A stretch of DNA of 10,510 bases. Origin: a virus. Lineage: Duplodnaviria; Heunggongvirae; Uroviricota; Caudoviricetes. The notes beneath the pieces were generated by a model. The model did no database searches and was not told the DNA's origin. It saw nothing but the letters and a program-made list of their open reading frames with translations. The position numbers and the translations under genes were made by a program. The stretch is taken from positions 1-10,510 of the IMG/VR virus record IMGVR_UViG_2690315922_000021; one strand, written 5' to 3'. Below are positions 1 to 10,510 of this stretch, piece by piece; positions within the stretch are counted from its first letter, which is position 1, and every line of letters begins with the position of its first letter.

Positions 1-600
1 ATGCAAATTGGCTATATTCGTGTGTCAACAAATGACCAGAACACGGATTTACAACGCAATGCACTGAACTGCGCAGGATGTGAACTGATTTTTGAAGATA
101 AAATCAGCGGAACGAAATCAGCCAGACCGGGATTGAAAAAACTGCTCAGAACGCTATCAGAAGGAGATACGCTGGTTGTCTGGAAGCTGGACAGACTGGG
201 CAGAAGTATGAAACACCTGATCACGCTTATTGAGGAATTGCGGGAAAAAGGTGTTAATTTCCGTAGTCTGACGGACAGCATTGACACATCAACACCCATG
301 GGGCGTTTCTTTTTTCACGTCATGGGGGCTTTAGCCGAAATGGAACGTGAATTAATTGTAGAGCGTACACTGGCCGGGCTGGCAGCAGCACGCGCACAAG
401 GACGCATTGGCGGACGTCGCCCGAAGTTGACAAAAGAACAACACGAGCAAATAGCGAGGCTGATTAAAAACGGTCATGACAGGAAACAACTGGCGATCAT
501 TTACGACATCGGCATATCGACGATTTATCGTTATCACCCTGTAGGCGATATACAGGCTGAAGAAACAACCAGGCAGACTCAGGAAAATGAAAACCGCTAA
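1..600 (+). CDS. Serine-recombinase DNA invertase (Gin/Hin/Pin/Cin family)
   Basis: 199-aa ORF starting at the ATG at position 1. N-terminal catalytic block GYIRVSTNDQ (Ser9), conserved LVVWKLDRLGRS and SLTDSIDTS...GRFFFHVMGALAEMERELI blocks, C-terminal HTH region (GRRPKLT...LAIIYDIGISTIYRY). Length and motif order match Mu Gin / Salmonella Hin as recalled from memory. Confidence 0.93.
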   Translation: MQIGYIRVSTNDQNTDLQRNALNCAGCELIFEDKISGTKSARPGLKKLLRTLSEGDTLVVWKLDRLGRSMKHLITLIEELREKGVNFRSLTDSIDTSTPMGRFFFHVMGALAEMERELIVERTLAGLAAARAQGRIGGRRPKLTKEQHEQIARLIKNGHDRKQLAIIYDIGISTIYRYHPVGDIQAEETTRQTQENENR

Positions 601-4190: not shown

Positions 4191-4460
4191 AATCATCACT
4201 TCATCCAGTCGTGGCGAGGTCACGCGAGGCAACAGCGTGAACATGGTATCCGCTTTCAGATTCAGCACATCAGACAGCGACAGACCACGCAGGGATCCAG
4301 CCTGTTCAATAGCCCCGGTGATCTCCACATACGTGATTTTTTCGCCACCACGCTCAATTGGTCGGGTCAGTTTTACGCCACGTTCGACAGCCATATCCTC
4401 ACCTGCCGTCACATCATCCGCCACGGTGTTATTCCGGGTTTCAGTATCGATGTCTTTCAT
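4086..4460 (-). CDS. E: Tail assembly chaperone gpE
   Basis: 124-aa ORF between the tail tube and tape measure genes. Strong Shine-Dalgarno AAGGAGA 6 nt upstream of the ATG at 4460. Contains an A7 slippery run 33 codons before its stop. Confidence 0.85.
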   Translation of the reverse strand: MKDIDTETRNNTVADDVTAGEDMAVERGVKLTRPIERGGEKITYVEITGAIEQAGSLRGLSLSDVLNLKADTMFTLLPRVTSPRLDEVMIKKMSSRDFIQLCAVAVNFMSEPDSGAKSVQETAA

Positions 4461-4515
4461 CAGTTGTCTCCTTTTCAGTCAGAGGCGACGCACTGCGCCG
4501 CCTGCATATTACTTA

Positions 4516-7479: not shown

Positions 7480-7521
7480 GCAACTTAGAATAGCAGCAGC
7501 ACCACGTTAAGGGAGGTCGCT

Positions 7522-7782
7522 ATGTTCCGTTGTCCGCTTTGTGGCGCATCTGCCCGTATCCGCACCAGTCGTCCGGAAAATGATTCAAACACCGTGCGGC
7601 AAAAGTATTACCAGTGTAACAACCTGGAATGCGGCGTATGCTTCTCAACACTGGAAGCTTTCCATAAATTCACATCAAAACACGCCTCCGGCGTTCACTC
7701 TTCAGAAGGTATCCCGTGGCATGAGCTGCCAGCTTCACACAGGGGAAACAATCAGATGAGTTTGCCTTTACCTCAGAATTAA
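7522..7782 (+). CDS. ogr: Ogr/Delta-family zinc-finger late transcription activator
   Basis: 86-aa ORF beginning MFRCPLCGA...TSR with a C-x2-C-x22-C-x4-C arrangement (CPLC ... CNNLEC), matching P2 Ogr (MFHCPLC...). Shine-Dalgarno AAGGGAGG upstream. Position immediately after D as in P2. Confidence 0.88.
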   Translation: MFRCPLCGASARIRTSRPENDSNTVRQKYYQCNNLECGVCFSTLEAFHKFTSKHASGVHSSEGIPWHELPASHRGNNQMSLPLPQN

Positions 7783-7791
7783 CAGGCAGAA

Positions 7792-7820
7792 TTGCCGGAG
7801 TAACAAAAAAGCGATAGATT
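7792..7820 (+). promoter_or_regulatory. Candidate sigma70 promoter for the hok-like transcript
   Basis: TTGCCG (7792-7797), 17-bp spacer, TAGATT (7815-7820), upstream of the mok/hok-like frames. Sequence inspection only. Confidence 0.25.
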
Positions 7821-7870
7821 ACGCGCGGGTGCCTTTCGGCTGATGGTCGGAGGGAATACCCGAAGGCCAG

Positions 7871-8107
7871 ATGTGGAAAGGCCCCGGAAAACATTTCTGT
7901 TTAACCGAGGCCCTAACACTTCTTACCTTCGCAAGTAGAAGGTTAGCGCCTCTCCTCTCAGGAGACAAGCGTTATGACGCAAATTCCGTTAAAAACCCTG
8001 TTACTTTGCATAACTGCGGTAGCGATAATCTGGATCCTCCACACATCACCGTGCGAGTTACGATTCAGGTTTGCTGGCACGGAAATTGCGGCATTCTTAC
8101 TATGTAA
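7871..8107 (+). CDS. mok-like overlapping leader frame (modulator of killing) of the hok-type locus
   Basis: Frame-shifted ORF that starts about 100 nt upstream of the hok-like ORF and ends 7 nt before its stop, the same overlap geometry as mok/hok. AAGG 5 nt upstream of the ATG at 7871. Confidence 0.4.
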   Translation: MWKGPGKHFCLTEALTLLTFASRRLAPLLSGDKRYDANSVKNPVTLHNCGSDNLDPPHITVRVTIQVCWHGNCGILTM

Positions 8108-8114
8108 TAAGTAA
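7974..8114 (+). CDS. Hok/Gef-family type I toxin (small membrane peptide)
   Basis: 46-codon ORF absent from the ORF track (below length cutoff): MTQIPLKTLLLCITAVAIIWILHTSPCELRFRFAGTEIAAFLLCNK. Has an N-terminal transmembrane helix with conserved Cys-x-Thr and the C-terminal CE[LI]R[FY]R.G..E[IV]AAF signature of Hok, HokB and RelF as recalled. Shine-Dalgarno AGGAGA 8 nt upstream of the ATG. Confidence 0.7.
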   Translation: MTQIPLKTLLLCITAVAIIWILHTSPCELRFRFAGTEIAAFLLCNK

Positions 8115-8200
8115 GATAACCGCGACGGGGGAGTAATCCCCCGTCAATCGGTTGCTAAGGTTGGTCGAAACGGCACCCTATCTCACAGACATGAACAACA

Positions 8201-8234
8201 AACCCGCAGCGTAAAAACTGCGGGTTTTCTTTTT
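8201..8234 (+). terminator. Rho-independent terminator (3' end of hok-like transcript)
   Basis: CCCGCAG (8203-8209) / CTGCGGG (8218-8224) stem with loop CGTAAAAA, followed by TTTTCTTTTT (8225-8234). Confidence 0.75.
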
Positions 8235-8258
8235 GGTGCCCTCACAAATGAGGGCACC
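8235..8258. repeat. Perfect 9-bp inverted repeat GGTGCCCTC-N6-GAGGGCACC
   Basis: Arms at 8235-8243 and 8250-8258. Not followed by a U-tract on either strand, so it is either a second hairpin of a tandem terminator or a protein-binding dyad upstream of the com-like gene. Confidence 0.5.
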
Positions 8259-8280
8259 ATACATAAGCAATAGGCATAAC

Positions 8281-8320
8281 AGATCGATGCAATAAATCCG
8301 ATCGATAAAAACGATCGATT
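8281..8320. promoter_or_regulatory. Cluster of three GATCGAT repeats upstream of the com-like gene
   Basis: AGATCGAT (8281-8288), CGATCGAT (8299-8306), CGATCGAT (8312-8319). GATCGAT was not found elsewhere in the window on visual scan. Lies 45-85 bp upstream of the com-like start. Confidence 0.5.
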
Positions 8321-8363
8321 TGTTATCATATCGGCAGCAGTAACCACACAAGAGGTGCCGCAA

Positions 8364-8561
8364 ATGACGCAAAATGTACGATGCAAAAATTGCAACAAAC
8401 TACTTGCCCGCGCCTCATTTCACTACATTGAAATAAAATGTCCGCGCTGCAAAACACTTAACCAGATAACGAGAGCCATCGAGCACCCCACACACATTAG
8501 GAGTTATGACCGTGGGGATCGCAATCCAGCACCAACCAGCACATACACCGGAACACACTAA
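8364..8561 (+). CDS. com: Mu Com-like zinc-finger translational regulator
   Basis: 66-aa ORF from the ATG at 8364 (the track starts at a GTG at 8355). RCKNCNKLL...HIEIKCPRCK...EHPT matches the Mu Com Cys4 zinc finger (RCKNCNKLL...HIEIRCPRCK...EHPT) as recalled. Shine-Dalgarno AGAGGTG upstream. The 3' end overlaps the start of the downstream methyltransferase. Confidence 0.85.
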   Translation: MTQNVRCKNCNKLLARASFHYIEIKCPRCKTLNQITRAIEHPTHIRSYDRGDRNPAPTSTYTGTH

Positions 8562-9297
8562 GGTTTATCAGACTGACAATGCCACGCTCTGTCGTGGGAA
8601 TGCGCTGGAAATATTGCCGCTGATTGAGCCAGAAAGCATTGATGCCTTAATCACTGACCCGCCTTACAGTTCGGGTGCGACACACAAGGCCGGACGCACC
8701 AACCAGGGCAGCCATGCAAAATATCTGAACGGCGAGAACATTCACCGTTTTGATGGGTTCGCGGGTGAAAACATGGACGCCCGTTCGTGGGCTTACTGGA
8801 CACAATTATGGATGGCACAGGCACACCGCGCAGTCAGGCCGGGCGGTTATGCCCTGGTATTTACTGACTGGCGACAATTACCAGCTTTAACCGATGCGTT
8901 TCAGGCCAGTGGCTTTACATGGCGCGGCATCATTGCGTGGAACAAGGGGAGGGGGTCACGAACACCACATACCGGGTATTTCCGGCATCAGTGCGAATAC
9001 ATCGTCTGGGGCAGCAAAGGCCATTTAGATAAATCGCCTTCGGGACCGTTCGACGGCTGCATGACATTCCCGGTTATCCCGTCAAAGAAAATGCACCCGA
9101 CCGGAAAACCAGAAGAACTAATGGCGGAACTGGTCAGGACTGTGAATAGTGGCGGAACAGTCCTTGATCCTTTTATGGGGTCAGGGACAACGGGTGTGGC
9201 TGCACTGAAAGCAGGACGCAAATTTATTGGTATAGAAACCAGTGATCATTATTTTGATGTAGCAACACAACGGCTAAAAACGGCGATCGAACCATAA
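8506..9297 (+). CDS. DNA methyltransferase, beta-class amino-MTase (probably N6-adenine), orphan
   Basis: 263-aa ORF with motif IV DPPY near the N-terminus (LITDPPY) and motif I FMGSGTTG near the C-terminus, the IV-then-I order of beta-class N6A/N4C methyltransferases. Shine-Dalgarno AGGAG upstream of the ATG at 8506. No restriction endonuclease partner in the window. Confidence 0.9.
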   Translation: MTVGIAIQHQPAHTPEHTKVYQTDNATLCRGNALEILPLIEPESIDALITDPPYSSGATHKAGRTNQGSHAKYLNGENIHRFDGFAGENMDARSWAYWTQLWMAQAHRAVRPGGYALVFTDWRQLPALTDAFQASGFTWRGIIAWNKGRGSRTPHTGYFRHQCEYIVWGSKGHLDKSPSGPFDGCMTFPVIPSKKMHPTGKPEELMAELVRTVNSGGTVLDPFMGSGTTGVAALKAGRKFIGIETSDHYFDVATQRLKTAIEP

Positions 9298-9302
9298 GAC
9301 AA

Positions 9303-9330
9303 AGCCCGCAATGTTGCGGGCTTACTCTAC
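9303..9330 (+). terminator. Probable intrinsic terminator downstream of the methyltransferase
   Basis: AGCCCGCAA / TTGCGGGCT inverted repeat (9303-9322) followed by a pyrimidine-rich TTACTCTAC tract. The U-tract is weak. Confidence 0.4.
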
Positions 9331-9462
9331 CTCTCGAAAATGTGGTCACTGCGTGGACATACGCTGATACAAATCCTTTTATATCAATAAATTAAATCTT
9401 TGTTTTTTTCATCAACAAGGATTTTCACGTTTGTGGTACCTGTATGAGACGAGAGTTAACCA

Positions 9463-9479
9463 AACAAGTGTGCCATAAT
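9463..9479 (+). promoter_or_regulatory. Candidate extended -10 promoter for flk
   Basis: TGTGCCATAAT (TG-n-CATAAT) about 50 bp upstream of the flk ATG in an AT-rich region. Sequence inspection only. Confidence 0.25.
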
Positions 9480-9526
9480 CTCGCGCCCAGGCATACTTGC
9501 GATGATTTCAGGTATAAGGATACATA

Positions 9527-10510
9527 ATGATACAACCTATTTCCGGCCCTCCTCCCGGGCAACTGCCAGACCGGGAAAACAGCGCAGGCAATCAGCCTTT
9601 ATCCAGTCTGCAACGAACCGCCCTGGAAAGCTTGATGACCAAAGTAACCTCGCTGACGCAACAACAGAGAGCGGAGTTATGGGCCGGCATCAAACACGAC
9701 ATCGGCCTGCCAGGCGATTCACCTTTACTCTCGCGCCACTTCCCCGCTGCGGAACATAACCTCGCGCAACGTCTGCTTGCCGCGCAAAAGAGCTATTCTG
9801 CTCGTCGGCTTTTAGCCCAGTTAGGAGAATATTTACGGTTGGGAAATAACCGTCAGGCGGTTACGGATTACATCCGAAATAACTTTGGTCAGACACCGCT
9901 TAACCAACTCTCGCCAGAACAATTAAAGACCATTCTTAACCTGTTACAGGAAGGGAAAATGGTTATTCCTCAACCACAGCAACGTCAGGCTACCGATCGT
10001 CCTTTATTACCGGCGGAGCATAATACGCTTAAACAACTGGTGACTAAACTCGCCGCGGCGACAGGGGAACCCAGCAAGCAGATCTGGCAGTCGATGCTGG
10101 AGCTTTCTGGTGTGAAAGATGGCGAACTAATCCCGGCAAAACTGTTTAACCATCTGGTCACCTGGTTGCAGGCGCGTCAGAGCTTAAGCCAACAAAATAC
10201 CCCGACGCTGGAATCGCTTCAGATGGCGCTAAAGAAACCGCTGGATACCAACGAGCTGGCAGCACTATCCGCGTATATCGAGCAAAAATATGGCCTTTCC
10301 GCGCAATCCGTCCTTTCTTCTGTACAGGCTGAGGATATCCTGAACCAGCTCTATCAACGGCGGGTTAAAGGGATTGATCCACGAGACATCCAGCCACTGC
10401 TCAATCCCTTTCCACCATTAATGAACACATTGCAAAATATGGCGACACGTCCCAGCGTGTGGATTTTATTAGTCGCCATCCTCATCATGCTGGTCTGGCT
10501 GGTACGTTAA
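9527..10510 (+). CDS. flk: Flagellar regulator Flk (C-tail-anchored inner-membrane protein), host chromosomal gene
   Basis: 327-aa ORF beginning MIQPISGPPPGQ, Gln-rich, with a single C-terminal hydrophobic anchor (WILLVAILIMLVWLVR). Matches enterobacterial Flk as recalled. Shine-Dalgarno AAGGA upstream. Confidence 0.8.
   Translation: MIQPISGPPPGQLPDRENSAGNQPLSSLQRTALESLMTKVTSLTQQQRAELWAGIKHDIGLPGDSPLLSRHFPAAEHNLAQRLLAAQKSYSARRLLAQLGEYLRLGNNRQAVTDYIRNNFGQTPLNQLSPEQLKTILNLLQEGKMVIPQPQQRQATDRPLLPAEHNTLKQLVTKLAAATGEPSKQIWQSMLELSGVKDGELIPAKLFNHLVTWLQARQSLSQQNTPTLESLQMALKKPLDTNELAALSAYIEQKYGLSAQSVLSSVQAEDILNQLYQRRVKGIDPRDIQPLLNPFPPLMNTLQNMATRPSVWILLVAILIMLVWLVR

What the first reader, a model, noticed from the sequence alone, without database searches (positions are those of the whole stretch)
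7871..8114. hok/gef-like type I toxin locus missing from the ORF track
A 46-codon ORF with a good Shine-Dalgarno encodes a peptide with a single transmembrane helix and the Hok-family C-terminal signature (CELRFRFAGTEIAAF versus CEIRYRDGHREVAAF in Hok). A longer frame-shifted ORF (7871-8107) overlaps it with the same geometry as mok, and a strong intrinsic terminator sits about 90 nt downstream. A Sok-like antisense RNA is therefore expected on the minus strand around the mok-like start (about 7800-7900), but I could not map its promoter or terminator convincingly. At the edge of a prophage this could act as an addiction or abortive-infection module.
Basis: partly seen in the sequence, partly recalled or inferred. 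Interest (0 to 1): 0.7.

Follow-up and report, generated by a model that had tools for sequence, protein, structure and literature searches.

The report
Known hok/sok toxin-antitoxin in prophage
This is a real but ordinary hok/sok-type toxin-antitoxin cassette carried near the end of a P2-like prophage; identical copies are already annotated as Hok/Gef in many E. coli genomes, and the only open point is whether this subfamily needs the classical mok leader ORF.

Summary
A 46-codon ORF (7974-8114, +) passes the Pfam Hok/Gef gathering score (33.8 vs 22 bits). A 78-codon ORF (7871-8107) overlaps it, and an intrinsic terminator lies 86 nt downstream.

The same DNA occurs at 100% identity in E. coli chromosomes, where RefSeq annotates it as 'Hok/Gef family protein' between ogr and a com/DNA-methyltransferase pair of a P2-like prophage. 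A similar locus is in 1257 of 5426 complete E. coli genomes. The exact peptide is already listed in a 2025-26 Hok catalogue.

An alignment of 57-58 distinct relatives plus RNA folding recover the hok/sok RNA architecture:
- a conserved hok promoter and an mRNA 5' end at 7827;
- 5'-3' tac/fbi pairing, and an alternative tac/ucb hairpin;
- a covarying target stem-loop;
- a minus-strand Sok-like gene (-35 at 7968-7963, -10 TAACCT at 7945-7940, RNA about 7933 to 7877).

The antisense RNA lies at about 7877-7933, not 7800-7900. The mok-like ORF is not conserved: 33 of 57 relatives have no ATG-initiated ORF reading past the hok start, including the closest non-identical ones.

Toxicity and transcripts were not tested. 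Verdict: already known, low interest.

The parts
7792..7820 (+). hok promoter: -35 TTGCCG (7792-7797), 17-nt spacer, -10 TAGATT (7815-7820)
   Evidence: Same register as the R1 and 933W hok promoters, with 6 nt between the -10 and the G of GG(G/C)(T/G)GC. TTGCCG, the 17-nt spacer and a TA...T hexamer are kept in lambdoid loci whose upstream flank is unrelated. It matches only 8 of 12 consensus positions, so the scan did not flag it.
7827..8236 (+). hok mRNA (full length, about 410 nt), from the inferred 5' end to the terminator U-run
   Evidence: The 5' end is where the Rfam hok-leader model starts here and in 933W and R1-like loci. MFE is -168.2 kcal/mol with z = -9.6 against shuffles. The consensus structure has 97.9% of cells paired and 12 pairs with compensatory changes, against 5.5 +/- 1.3 in shuffles.
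7827..7837 (+). tac element (GGGUGCCUUUC) at the mRNA 5' end
   Evidence: It pairs with fbi in the full-length fold and with ucb when the 3' end is removed. It is nearly invariant across 57 sequences.
7871..8107 (+). 78-codon overlapping ORF ('mok-like'); doubtful as a functional element
   Evidence: The ORF is present, with GAAGG at 7862-7866 as a possible SD. The aligned ATG sits in frame 0, 1 or 2 relative to hok in relatives. It is a two-codon ATG-TGA in the lambdoid clade. There is no ATG ORF past the hok start in 33 of 57 relatives.
7875..7885 (+). ucb / anti-SD box (GGAAAGGCCCC)
   Evidence: It pairs with tac in the truncated fold. Its GGCCCC pairs with GAGGCC (7907-7912) in the full-length fold, equivalent to the R1 mok-SD/aSD stem (PMC9841398). 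It is nearly invariant.
7907..7952 (+). target (sokT-like) stem-loop: conserved base helix GAGGC.CUAAC/GGUUAG.GCCUC, variable covarying upper stem, and a loop holding a YUNR-type tetranucleotide (UUCG here)
   Evidence: It folds in 22 distinct sequence variants with different upper-stem sequences that stay complementary. The loop CCUU(C/A/G)..CAAG is conserved. The base helix is 99.1% paired (helix 6).
7877..7933 (-). Sok-like antisense RNA (about 57 nt). The 5' tail is complementary to the target loop. A GC-clamped hairpin spans 7914 to 7878, followed by UUUCC. The ends are inferred to within a few nt.
   Evidence: It is positionally homologous to the annotated sokW of phage 933W. The fold is -30.7 kcal/mol, z = -5.5. 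No transcript data exist.
7940..7968 (-). Sok-like promoter: -35 TTGTCT (7968-7963), 17-nt spacer, -10 TAACCT (7945-7940)
   Evidence: The -10 TAACCT and the 17-nt spacer are kept in 57 of 57 relatives, and the -35 is TTGnnn in 56 of 57. The same hexamer in the same register is the sokW -10. The primers in PMC8621323 mutate it (AGGTTA to CGGCTC on the sense strand) to make the 'pro-less' construct that loses antitoxin activity.
7960..7964 (+). hok Shine-Dalgarno AGGAG, opposite a CUCC anti-SD at 7952-7955
   Evidence: Read from the sequence. The local hairpin appears in both folds. CUCC...GGAG is conserved in the alignment.
7974..8114 (+). hok-family toxin gene (46 aa)
   Evidence: Pfam PF01848 scores 33.8 bits against a gathering score of 22. 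The identical CDS is WP_032140709.1 'Hok/Gef family protein'. It is entry 1818 in the supplement of bioRxiv 10.1101/2025.08.07.668861.
8086..8094 (+). downstream box (UUGCGGCAU) pairing with the hok start codon region 7974-7982
   Evidence: A 9-bp long-range helix, 99.1% paired in 25 sequences (helix 8). It is present in both the full-length and truncated folds.
8118..8153 (+). post-stop stem-loop (AACCG...CGGUU enclosing GACGGGGGA-GUAA-UCCCCCGUC)
   Evidence: This helix has the most compensatory changes (4 pairs) (helices 14-15). It is the counterpart of the GC-rich hairpin after the R1 and 933W hok stops.
8160..8178 (+). fbi element (core GGCACCC 8172-8178, extended pairing from 8160)
   Evidence: It pairs with mRNA positions 1-18 in the MFE. 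The core is kept in nearly all relatives. In L009 and L055 both the 5' (UUCGAUG) and 3' (AUCGUAA) partners change together.
8200..8236 (+). intrinsic terminator of the hok mRNA
   Evidence: A 10-bp stem with 6 GC pairs, followed by TCTTTTTGGT.

Best explanation
The region 7790-8236 is a complete hok/sok-type type I toxin-antitoxin cassette. It is carried as an accessory gene between ogr and a com/DNA-methyltransferase pair, about 1.3 kb from the right end of a P2-like (Peduoviridae, P88/Xuanwuvirus-like) prophage.

Shown here: the 46-aa product is a Hok/Gef-family peptide, and the surrounding DNA carries the conserved sequence and structure elements of a hok mRNA and of a convergent antisense gene.

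Inferred mechanism, by homology with R1 hok/sok and 933W/Sp5 hokW-sokW:
1. A stable mRNA of about 410 nt starts at 7827 and folds into a closed form in which its 5' end (tac) pairs with fbi (8160-8178).
2. Slow 3' trimming removes fbi. tac then pairs with ucb (7875-7885), which remodels the leader.
3. A short-lived Sok-like RNA of about 57 nt (7933 to about 7877, minus strand) contacts the target loop through its 5' tail. It forms a duplex that blocks expression and is cut by RNase III.
4. When Sok supply stops (prophage loss, host transcription shut-off by an infecting phage, or prophage induction), the long-lived mRNA is translated. Hok inserts in the inner membrane and collapses the membrane potential.

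The step I consider least certain is how hok translation is opened. The 78-codon overlapping ORF may act as mok in this clade, but it is not conserved among relatives.
For: Toxin identity:
- Pfam HOK_GEF is above the gathering score.
- Identity is 35% to R1 Hok and 29% to HokW across the TM-to-C-terminal motif.
- Identical DNA is annotated 'Hok/Gef family protein' in RefSeq.
- The peptide is listed in a Hok catalogue. Relatives 72_1621 (50% identical) and 79_1563 (about 65% identical) were in that study's toxicity panel and are not among its 3 non-toxic sequences.

hok mRNA:
- RF01794 matches 7827-7985 on the hok strand with E 2.9e-8. The model matches the same strand and register in 933W and an R1-like plasmid.
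- The full-length fold has z = -9.6 with 5'-3' closure. The truncated fold switches to tac/ucb.
- The consensus structure has 97.9% of cells paired. Twelve pairs carry compensatory changes, against 5.5 in shuffles and 0-7 in slid controls.
- The hok promoter is kept in unrelated flanks.

Sok-like gene:
- The -10 TAACCT and the 17-nt spacer are kept in 57 of 57 relatives.
- This is the same hexamer that was mutated to abolish sokW function.
- The antisense transcript folds into a hairpin plus U-tract, z = -5.5.
- The most variable part of the leader is exactly the Sok 5'-tail/target upper stem, which covaries.

Context: P2 tail genes, ogr, com and a methyltransferase, followed by flk.
Against: - No experimental data exist for this locus. 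Toxicity, both transcripts and their ends are inferred.
- Both promoters are weak by consensus (8 of 12 and 7 of 12 matches), and the promoter scan flagged neither.
- RF01794 is below its gathering score (47.4 vs 59). NCBIfam Hok models are far below their cut-offs.
- The tac/fbi core is nearly invariant, so it offers little covariation support (helix 1).
- The residue before the conserved Cys is Pro here, where most Hok proteins have Leu.
- The Sok terminator has only three U residues.
- The mok element that R1 requires is not conserved in this subfamily, so the translation-activation step is unresolved.
Confidence: 0.88

Rival explanations
1. The classical three-gene hok/mok/sok reading of the first stage. 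The 78-codon ORF 7871-8107 is a true mok whose translation is needed to open the hok ribosome-binding site. Sok acts by blocking mok initiation.
For: The ORF exists, overlaps hok out of frame and stops 7 nt before the hok stop, as R1 mok does. A GAAGG sits 4 nt upstream of its ATG. The ATG is kept in most relatives and in 8 of 10 sequences of the window's own Hok clade. The predicted Sok 3' end (about 7877) lies within the first few codons, close enough to interfere with 30S binding. The hok start codon is locked in a conserved long-range helix (helix 8), which suggests that an upstream ribosome is needed.
Against: Thirty-three of 57 distinct relatives have no ATG ORF reading past the hok ATG. 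The aligned ATG falls in all three frames. It is followed directly by TGA in the lambdoid clade. The closest non-identical relatives (L020 and L021, Hok 91% identical) carry 1-2 nt indels that end the ORF 35-36 nt before hok. The start lies about 45 nt from the mRNA 5' end, not after the conserved GAGG where R1 and 933W mok start, and no ATG, GTG or TTG follows that GAGG here. Conservation of the ATG is also explained by its lying inside the doubly constrained ucb and Sok-tail segment.
Confidence: 0.25
2. A decayed, non-functional hok remnant. The peptide or its regulation is inactive, as in several E. coli K-12 chromosomal hok loci, and the cassette merely hitch-hikes in the prophage.
For: Toxicity is untested. 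There is a Pro in place of the usual Leu before the conserved Cys. The Rfam and NCBIfam scores are sub-threshold. Natural knock-outs exist: an IS element sits between the SD and the ATG in strains TUM2820 and RM14723.
Against: The ORF, both promoters, tac, ucb, fbi, the target loop and the terminator are all intact and kept across 57 distinct sequences, with compensatory changes. Copies at 99% identity or higher are in about 29 complete genomes, and relatives are in 1257. In the catalogue study 42 of 45 tested Hok homologues were toxic, and alanine substitution of conserved residues in R1 Hok did not prevent toxicity. IS disruption in some strains is what one expects if the intact gene is costly.
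Confidence: 0.07
3. The molecular device is the same, but its main biological role is not prophage addiction. It may help lysis and phage release on induction (as hokW-sokW does in Sp5), or it may abort infection by other phages (as reported for R1 hok/sok against T4).
For: hokW-sokW doubles Sp5 progeny release, and HokW appears after RecA-dependent induction (PMC8621323). That paper also cites T4 inhibition by R1 hok/sok. hok genes are about four-fold enriched in prophages (bioRxiv 10.1101/2025.08.07.668861). The cassette sits among accessory genes next to a methyltransferase.
Against: Nothing in the sequence distinguishes these roles. HokW is only 29% identical and sits in a lambdoid phage, not a P2-like one.
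Confidence: 0.4

Closest known systems
hok/sok (parB) of plasmid R1 and its IncF relatives
   Same: A Hok-family toxin. The promoter-to-+1 register is the same. tac, ucb, fbi, the SD/anti-SD hairpin, the target stem-loop and the GC-rich post-stop hairpin all occur in the same order. There is a convergent antisense promoter inside the leader with a 17-nt spacer (TATCCT in R1, TAACCT here).
   Different: The protein is only 35% identical and is 46 aa rather than 52 aa. No start codon follows the conserved GAGG where R1 mok begins. The leader is about 24 nt shorter. The Rfam leader model scores 47 bits here against 87 bits for the R1-like locus. The element is prophage-borne rather than plasmid-borne.
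hokW-sokW of Stx2 phages 933W/Sp5 (the source of the 'MokW-like' label in RefSeq phage records)
   Same: A prophage-borne hok/sok locus. The Sok -10 hexamer TAACCT is identical and in the same register. The 5' end GCGGGTGC and the fbi complement are similar. It has been shown experimentally to be a type I TA (PMC8621323).
   Different: Protein identity is 29%, and HokW is 51 aa. 933W has an annotated mokW start that SokW overlaps, which the window lacks. SokW is 71 nt, against about 57 nt predicted here. The host phage is lambdoid rather than P2-like. Some Stx phages carry a separate 46-aa hok of the window's type, so the two are distinct paralogous lineages.
Prophage-associated 46-aa Hok clusters in the Escalera-Maurer et al. 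catalogue (entries 72_1621, 79_1563 and 1818)
   Same: The window peptide is entry 1818. The P88-type (MSQKSL...) and lambdoid-type (MSQKPL...) relatives share the whole RNA architecture and, in P2-like phages, the position next to ogr.
   Different: Hok identity is 50-67%. The window's clade keeps a long overlapping ORF, which most of these relatives lack.
Chromosomal hokA/C/E loci of E. coli K-12 (from my own knowledge: Pedersen and Gerdes 1999 reported them inactivated by IS elements)
   Same: The same family. The same kind of natural inactivation is seen for this locus in some strains, with an IS between the SD and the ATG.
   Different: The window copy is intact. NCBIfam HokA and Hok-subfamily models score 25-28 bits against cut-offs of 73-89, so it is not an orthologue of those genes.

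Membership tests
Hok/Gef toxin family (Pfam PF01848) | Profile match at or above the curated gathering score | tested here: met
   33.8 bits against 22, E 2.5e-8, covering residues 9-44 and profile positions 7-42 of 42.
Hok/Gef toxin family (Pfam PF01848) | Peptide of about 50 aa with one N-terminal hydrophobic helix and the conserved Cys/Thr...Cys-Glu...Glu positions | tested here: met
   46 aa, with hydropathy peaking at 2.75 over residues 8-22. C12, T14, C27, E28 and E37 correspond to the catalogue's conserved C16, T18, C31, E32 and E41. Only L30 is replaced, by Pro.
Hok/Gef toxin family (Pfam PF01848) | Kills or arrests cells by membrane damage when expressed | not testable with these tools
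   Indirect only. Relatives 72_1621 and 79_1563 were in a toxicity panel in which all but three other sequences were toxic.
Named Hok orthologue groups (NCBIfam HokA equivalog NF007290; Hok subfamily NF007279) | Score above the curated cut-off | tested here: not met
   27.7 against 89 and 25.2 against 73 bits. It is a Hok-family member but not one of these named groups.
hok/sok-type type I TA locus (RNA architecture) | Match to the Rfam hok-leader model RF01794 at the gathering score | tested here: not met
   47.4 bits against 59, although E is 2.9e-8 and the match is full length (1-157). P88 and Stx-phage relatives score 42-48 bits. 933W scores 113 bits and the R1-like locus 87 bits.
hok/sok-type type I TA locus (RNA architecture) | 5' tac element complementary to a 3' fbi element upstream of the terminator | tested here: met
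   GGGUGCC (7827-7833) pairs with GGCACCC (8172-8178). The pairing extends to 18 bp in the MFE. It is kept in 25 of 25 representatives at 98.9% paired. The flanking partners change together in L009 and L055.
hok/sok-type type I TA locus (RNA architecture) | Alternative tac/ucb hairpin once the 3' end is removed | tested here: met
   The fold of 7827-8158 pairs positions 1-11 with 50-59 (GGAAAGGCCCC), z = -6.9. This is a prediction only.
hok/sok-type type I TA locus (RNA architecture) | Convergent cis-antisense RNA gene with its own promoter inside the leader | tested here: inconclusive
   The promoter hexamers and spacer are conserved in 57 of 57 relatives and are homologous to the experimentally mutated sokW -10. 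The hairpin plus U-tract is predicted. No transcript evidence is available.
hok/sok-type type I TA locus (RNA architecture) | Target stem-loop presenting a YUNR-type loop to the antisense 5' tail | tested here: met
   A stem-loop forms at 7907-7952 in 22 sequence variants. The upper stem covaries, and the loop contains UUCG, UUAA, UUGA or CUAA. That YUNR loops speed antisense pairing is from my own knowledge (Franch et al. 1999).
hok/sok-type type I TA locus (RNA architecture) | Conserved mok leader ORF overlapping the hok start, whose initiation region Sok covers | tested here: not met
   The ORF is present in the window, but 33 of 57 relatives lack it, its frame varies, and there is no start codon at the R1/933W mok position.
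hokW-sokW orthologue group (933W/Sp5) | Close sequence relationship to HokW, and a mokW start overlapped by SokW | tested here: not met
   Identity to HokW is 29%. There is no ATG at the aligned mokW position. The 'MokW-like' product name in phage RefSeq records is a loose label.

The most novel reading that the evidence does not exclude
The prophage-borne 46-aa Hok subfamily (the window's clade plus the P88-type and lambdoid-type clusters) may have dispensed with mok. It keeps the tac/ucb/fbi switch, the former mok SD/anti-SD hairpin and Sok, but most members have no leader ORF reaching hok. Hok would then be translated from its own AGGAG. Sok would act by RNase III cleavage, by blocking refolding or by occluding a standby site, rather than by repressing a leader peptide. 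If so, the paradigm 'Sok controls hok only through mok' would not hold for a group found in about a quarter of complete E. coli genomes.
Probability: 0.3. Interest if true: 0.4.

Novelty: already known. Interest (0 to 1): 0.15.

Why it matters
It matters little as a discovery. NCBI's pipeline already annotates the gene, a published catalogue lists the peptide, and the hok/sok mechanism is a textbook paradigm.

The practical value is an element-by-element map of this cassette in window coordinates: promoters, tac, ucb, fbi, the target loop and the Sok-like gene. The catalogue paper explicitly did not attempt such a map for Mok, Sok or the mRNA ends.

A second useful point is that the mok ORF is not conserved in this widespread prophage subfamily. 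That can be tested with a handful of point mutants. If confirmed, it would modestly revise how hok translation is thought to be licensed.

Tried and rejected
1. Chance ORF. I rejected this on the Pfam score and on conservation of the ORF in 86 fetched loci.

2. An R1/933W-type mok start after the conserved GAGG (7907-7910). There is no ATG, GTG or TTG within reach, either here or in relatives.

3. An in-frame N-terminal extension of Hok. Stops lie upstream in frame. The 72-aa database protein P0001 comes from a strain with an IS inserted before the ATG, not from a longer native form.

4. The consensus promoter scan found neither the hok nor the Sok promoter at its 9-of-12 threshold. Both assignments therefore rest on homology and conservation.

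5. The word-indexed protein search returned only 6 close relatives. Relatives were obtained instead from the phage, E. coli, IMG/VR and GTDB DNA collections.

6. Reading the strand of the Rfam 'sok' hit as evidence for Sok on the plus strand. I rejected this because the model matches the hok-sense strand in 933W, where sokW is annotated on the opposite strand.

7. Assignment to the hokW group, as the RefSeq phage label suggests. I rejected this on 29% identity and different leader features.

8. The weak Rfam hits BSnc120 (8179-8271, minus strand) and osmY (4445-4504) are far below their gathering scores. I read them as terminator-like hairpins or chance.

Full report
**Observation.** One runs 7974..8114 (+, 46 aa) and the other 7871..8107 (+, 78 aa). 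An AGGAG lies 9 nt upstream of the 46-codon ORF. A terminator-like hairpin (8200-8227, then TCTTTTT) begins 86 nt after its stop. The peptide passes the Pfam Hok/Gef model above the curated threshold (33.8 vs 22 bits, E 2.5e-8). It aligns with R1 Hok over the helix-to-C-terminus segment (35% identity), and its hydropathy fits a single membrane helix. The 78-aa ORF matches no family.

**What the locus is.** The 511-bp region 7780-8290 occurs at 100% identity in several E. coli chromosomes and at 99% or more in about 29. A similar locus is in 1257 of 5426 complete genomes, and the listed hits are annotated 'Hok/Gef family protein' next to an 'ogr/Delta-like zinc finger' gene.
- In strain CFSAN018748 the identical CDS is WP_032140709.1. 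It lies after P2-type tail genes and ogr, and before a Com-family regulator and a DNA methyltransferase. Host genes follow.
- The window has the same layout: gpU, tape measure, tube, sheath, gpD, ogr, hok, com, methyltransferase, then the host gene flk.
- Related phage records (P88, Xuanwuvirus; Peduoviridae) carry the same gene labelled 'MokW-like host killing'.
- The exact peptide is entry 1818 in the supplement of a Hok catalogue (bioRxiv 10.1101/2025.08.07.668861). That study reports hok enrichment in prophages. It also found 42 of 45 tested homologues toxic, including relatives of this peptide.

The gene is therefore known and annotated. Its absence from the first stage's ORF track probably reflects a length cut-off, but I could not check that.

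**RNA anatomy.** I collected 86 homologous loci, reduced them to 58 distinct sequences (57 after dropping one with masked Ns) and aligned them. For comparison I used phage 933W, where hokW, mokW and sokW are annotated, and an R1-type IncF plasmid.
- The hok promoter (-35 TTGCCG 7792-7797, 17-nt spacer, -10 TAGATT 7815-7820) is in the same register as in R1 and 933W. It is retained in lambdoid loci whose upstream flank is unrelated.
- The Rfam model RF01794 matches 7827-7985 full length (E 2.9e-8, but 47.4 bits against a gathering score of 59). In 933W and the R1-like plasmid the same model matches the hok-sense strand from +1 to the hok ATG, at 113 and 87 bits. The model therefore describes the hok leader and fixes the likely 5' end at 7827. 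It does not indicate the Sok strand.
- The full-length RNA (7827-8236) folds at -168.2 kcal/mol (z = -9.6). Its first 18 nt pair with 8160-8178, which is the tac/fbi pairing.
- Without the 3' end (7827-8158), the 5' end instead pairs with GGAAAGGCCCC at 7875-7885, which is the tac/ucb pairing. This reproduces the switch described for R1 (PMC9841398).
- On 25 representatives the consensus structure has 97.9% of cells paired. Twelve pairs have compensatory changes, against 5.5 +/- 1.3 in column shuffles and 0-7 in slid controls. Most of these lie in the post-stop hairpin (8118-8153) and in coding-region helices.
- The tac/fbi core is almost invariant, so it is uninformative for covariation. Its extension does change on both sides together in two divergent loci.
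- A conserved 9-bp helix ties the hok start codon (7974-7982) to 8086-8094.

**The antisense gene.** On the minus strand, a -10 TAACCT (7945-7940) and a 17-nt spacer are kept in 57 of 57 sequences, and the -35 is TTGnnn in 56 of 57 (TTGTCT here, 7968-7963).
- In 933W the same hexamer sits 6 nt upstream of the annotated sokW 5' end.
- The primers used by Takada et al. to build their 'pro-less' sokW mutant change exactly this hexamer, and that construct loses antitoxin activity (PMC8621323).
- By register, the Sok-like RNA would start at about 7932-7933 and end after GGGGCCUUU at about 7877, giving about 57 nt. It folds into a 5' tail plus a GC-clamped hairpin (z = -5.5).
- The sense-strand target (7907-7952) forms a stem-loop in 22 variants. 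Its base and loop are conserved, and its upper stem is hypervariable but complementary. That pattern is expected for the specificity determinant of a cis-antisense pair.

**The mok question.**
- In R1, mok translation up to the hok SD is required for Hok synthesis (PMC9841398). In R1-type and 933W loci an ATG follows the conserved GAGG. Here and in all relatives no ATG, GTG or TTG follows that GAGG (7907-7910).
Its ATG is widely conserved as sequence. Relative to hok, however, it falls in frame 0, 1 or 2. It is an ATG-TGA dicodon in the lambdoid clade. In the closest non-identical relatives (Hok 91% identical) it runs into stops 35-36 nt before hok.
- Only 24 of 57 distinct sequences have any ATG ORF reading past the hok ATG, against 8 of 10 in the window's own clade.
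- The ATG lies inside a segment constrained both by ucb and by the Sok 3' end, which can explain its conservation.

I therefore treat the ORF as unproven (about 25% likely to be functional). How hok translation is opened is the unresolved step.

**Function.** Nothing in the sequence tells prophage addiction from lysis assistance or abortive infection. The nearest experimental precedent in a prophage, hokW-sokW, promotes phage release after induction. R1 hok/sok has been reported to impair T4 (PMC8621323). In two E. coli strains an IS element with a 9-bp target duplication (7965-7973) separates the SD from the ATG. This is a natural knock-out, compatible with the intact gene being potentially harmful.

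**Comparison and verdict.** The locus works like R1 hok/sok and is a member of the Hok/Gef family by the Pfam criterion.
- It is not an orthologue of HokA-E or R1 Hok (NCBIfam scores are far below cut-off).
- It is not an orthologue of HokW (29% identity).
- It belongs to a set of 46-aa prophage-associated Hok clusters that are already catalogued.

The finding is real and mostly correctly interpreted, but it is already known. The residual interest is the apparent dispensability of mok in this subfamily.

Noticed in passing
window 7965-7973; locus L092 (E. coli TUM2820) 624-1765: In strains TUM2820 and RM14723 an IS element of about 1.09 kb (integrase-core transposase) is inserted between the hok SD and the ATG. 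It duplicates 9 bp, ACAAGCGTT. PGAP then calls a chimeric 72-aa 'Hok/Gef' protein there. This is a natural knock-out of the same locus.
   Followed up: yes
window 8236-8259: A palindrome with 10-bp perfect arms, GGTGCCCTCACAAATGAGGGCACC, lies directly after the hok terminator. It is partly conserved in other P2-like loci. Together with the terminator it gives a weak Rfam BSnc120 hit on the minus strand (23 bits against 114). Its role is unknown: it could be a second or bidirectional terminator, or a protein site.
   Followed up: partly
window 8298-8329: The palindrome CGATCGATAAAAACGATCG overlaps the only promoter-like site the scan reported (TCGATA, 16 nt, TATCAT, with TG). It sits just upstream of the com-like gene and is possibly the regulatory region of the com/methyltransferase pair.
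   Followed up: no
window 8355-8561 and 8506-9297: A Mu Com-like zinc-ribbon ORF overlaps the start of an N6/N4 DNA methyltransferase gene. The layout resembles com-mom, but with a methyltransferase in place of Mom. It is the last prophage cargo before the host gene flk.
   Followed up: partly
window 1-600: A serine resolvase/invertase (Resolvase plus HTH_7) lies next to the P2-type tail genes. It is probably a tail-fibre inversion (Hin/Gin/Cin-type) recombinase.
   Followed up: no
window 9527-10510: The flanking host gene flk (annotated as such in the matching E. coli records) has no Pfam hit. Over the query 7500-10510, which includes flk, the best match is 80-90% identical in most E. coli genomes. 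The source may therefore be an unusual lineage or a related Escherichia species.
   Followed up: no
window 7827-7985; L090 703-877; L091 232-403: The Rfam family RF01794, named 'sok antitoxin', matches the hok-sense strand from mRNA +1 to the hok ATG, even where sokW is annotated on the opposite strand. The model describes the hok leader, so the strand of a hit should not be read as the Sok strand.
   Followed up: yes
loci L004, L005, L008: Loci of the P88-type hok (Hok identical to phage P88's, 48% to the window's) appear in genome records labelled Planococcaceae MAG, Vagococcus sp. (a 226-kb contig) and Xanthomonas pisi (an 857-bp contig). The most likely cause is enterobacterial contamination or mis-binning in those assemblies.
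   Followed up: no
locus L003 (phage Lyz12581Vzw) 2170-2310, compared with L090 (933W) 872-1027: Among Stx-converting lambdoid phages, one record (Lyz12581Vzw) carries a 46-aa hok of the window's type. This is distinct from the 51-aa hokW of 933W, so two different hok lineages circulate in this phage group.
   Followed up: partly
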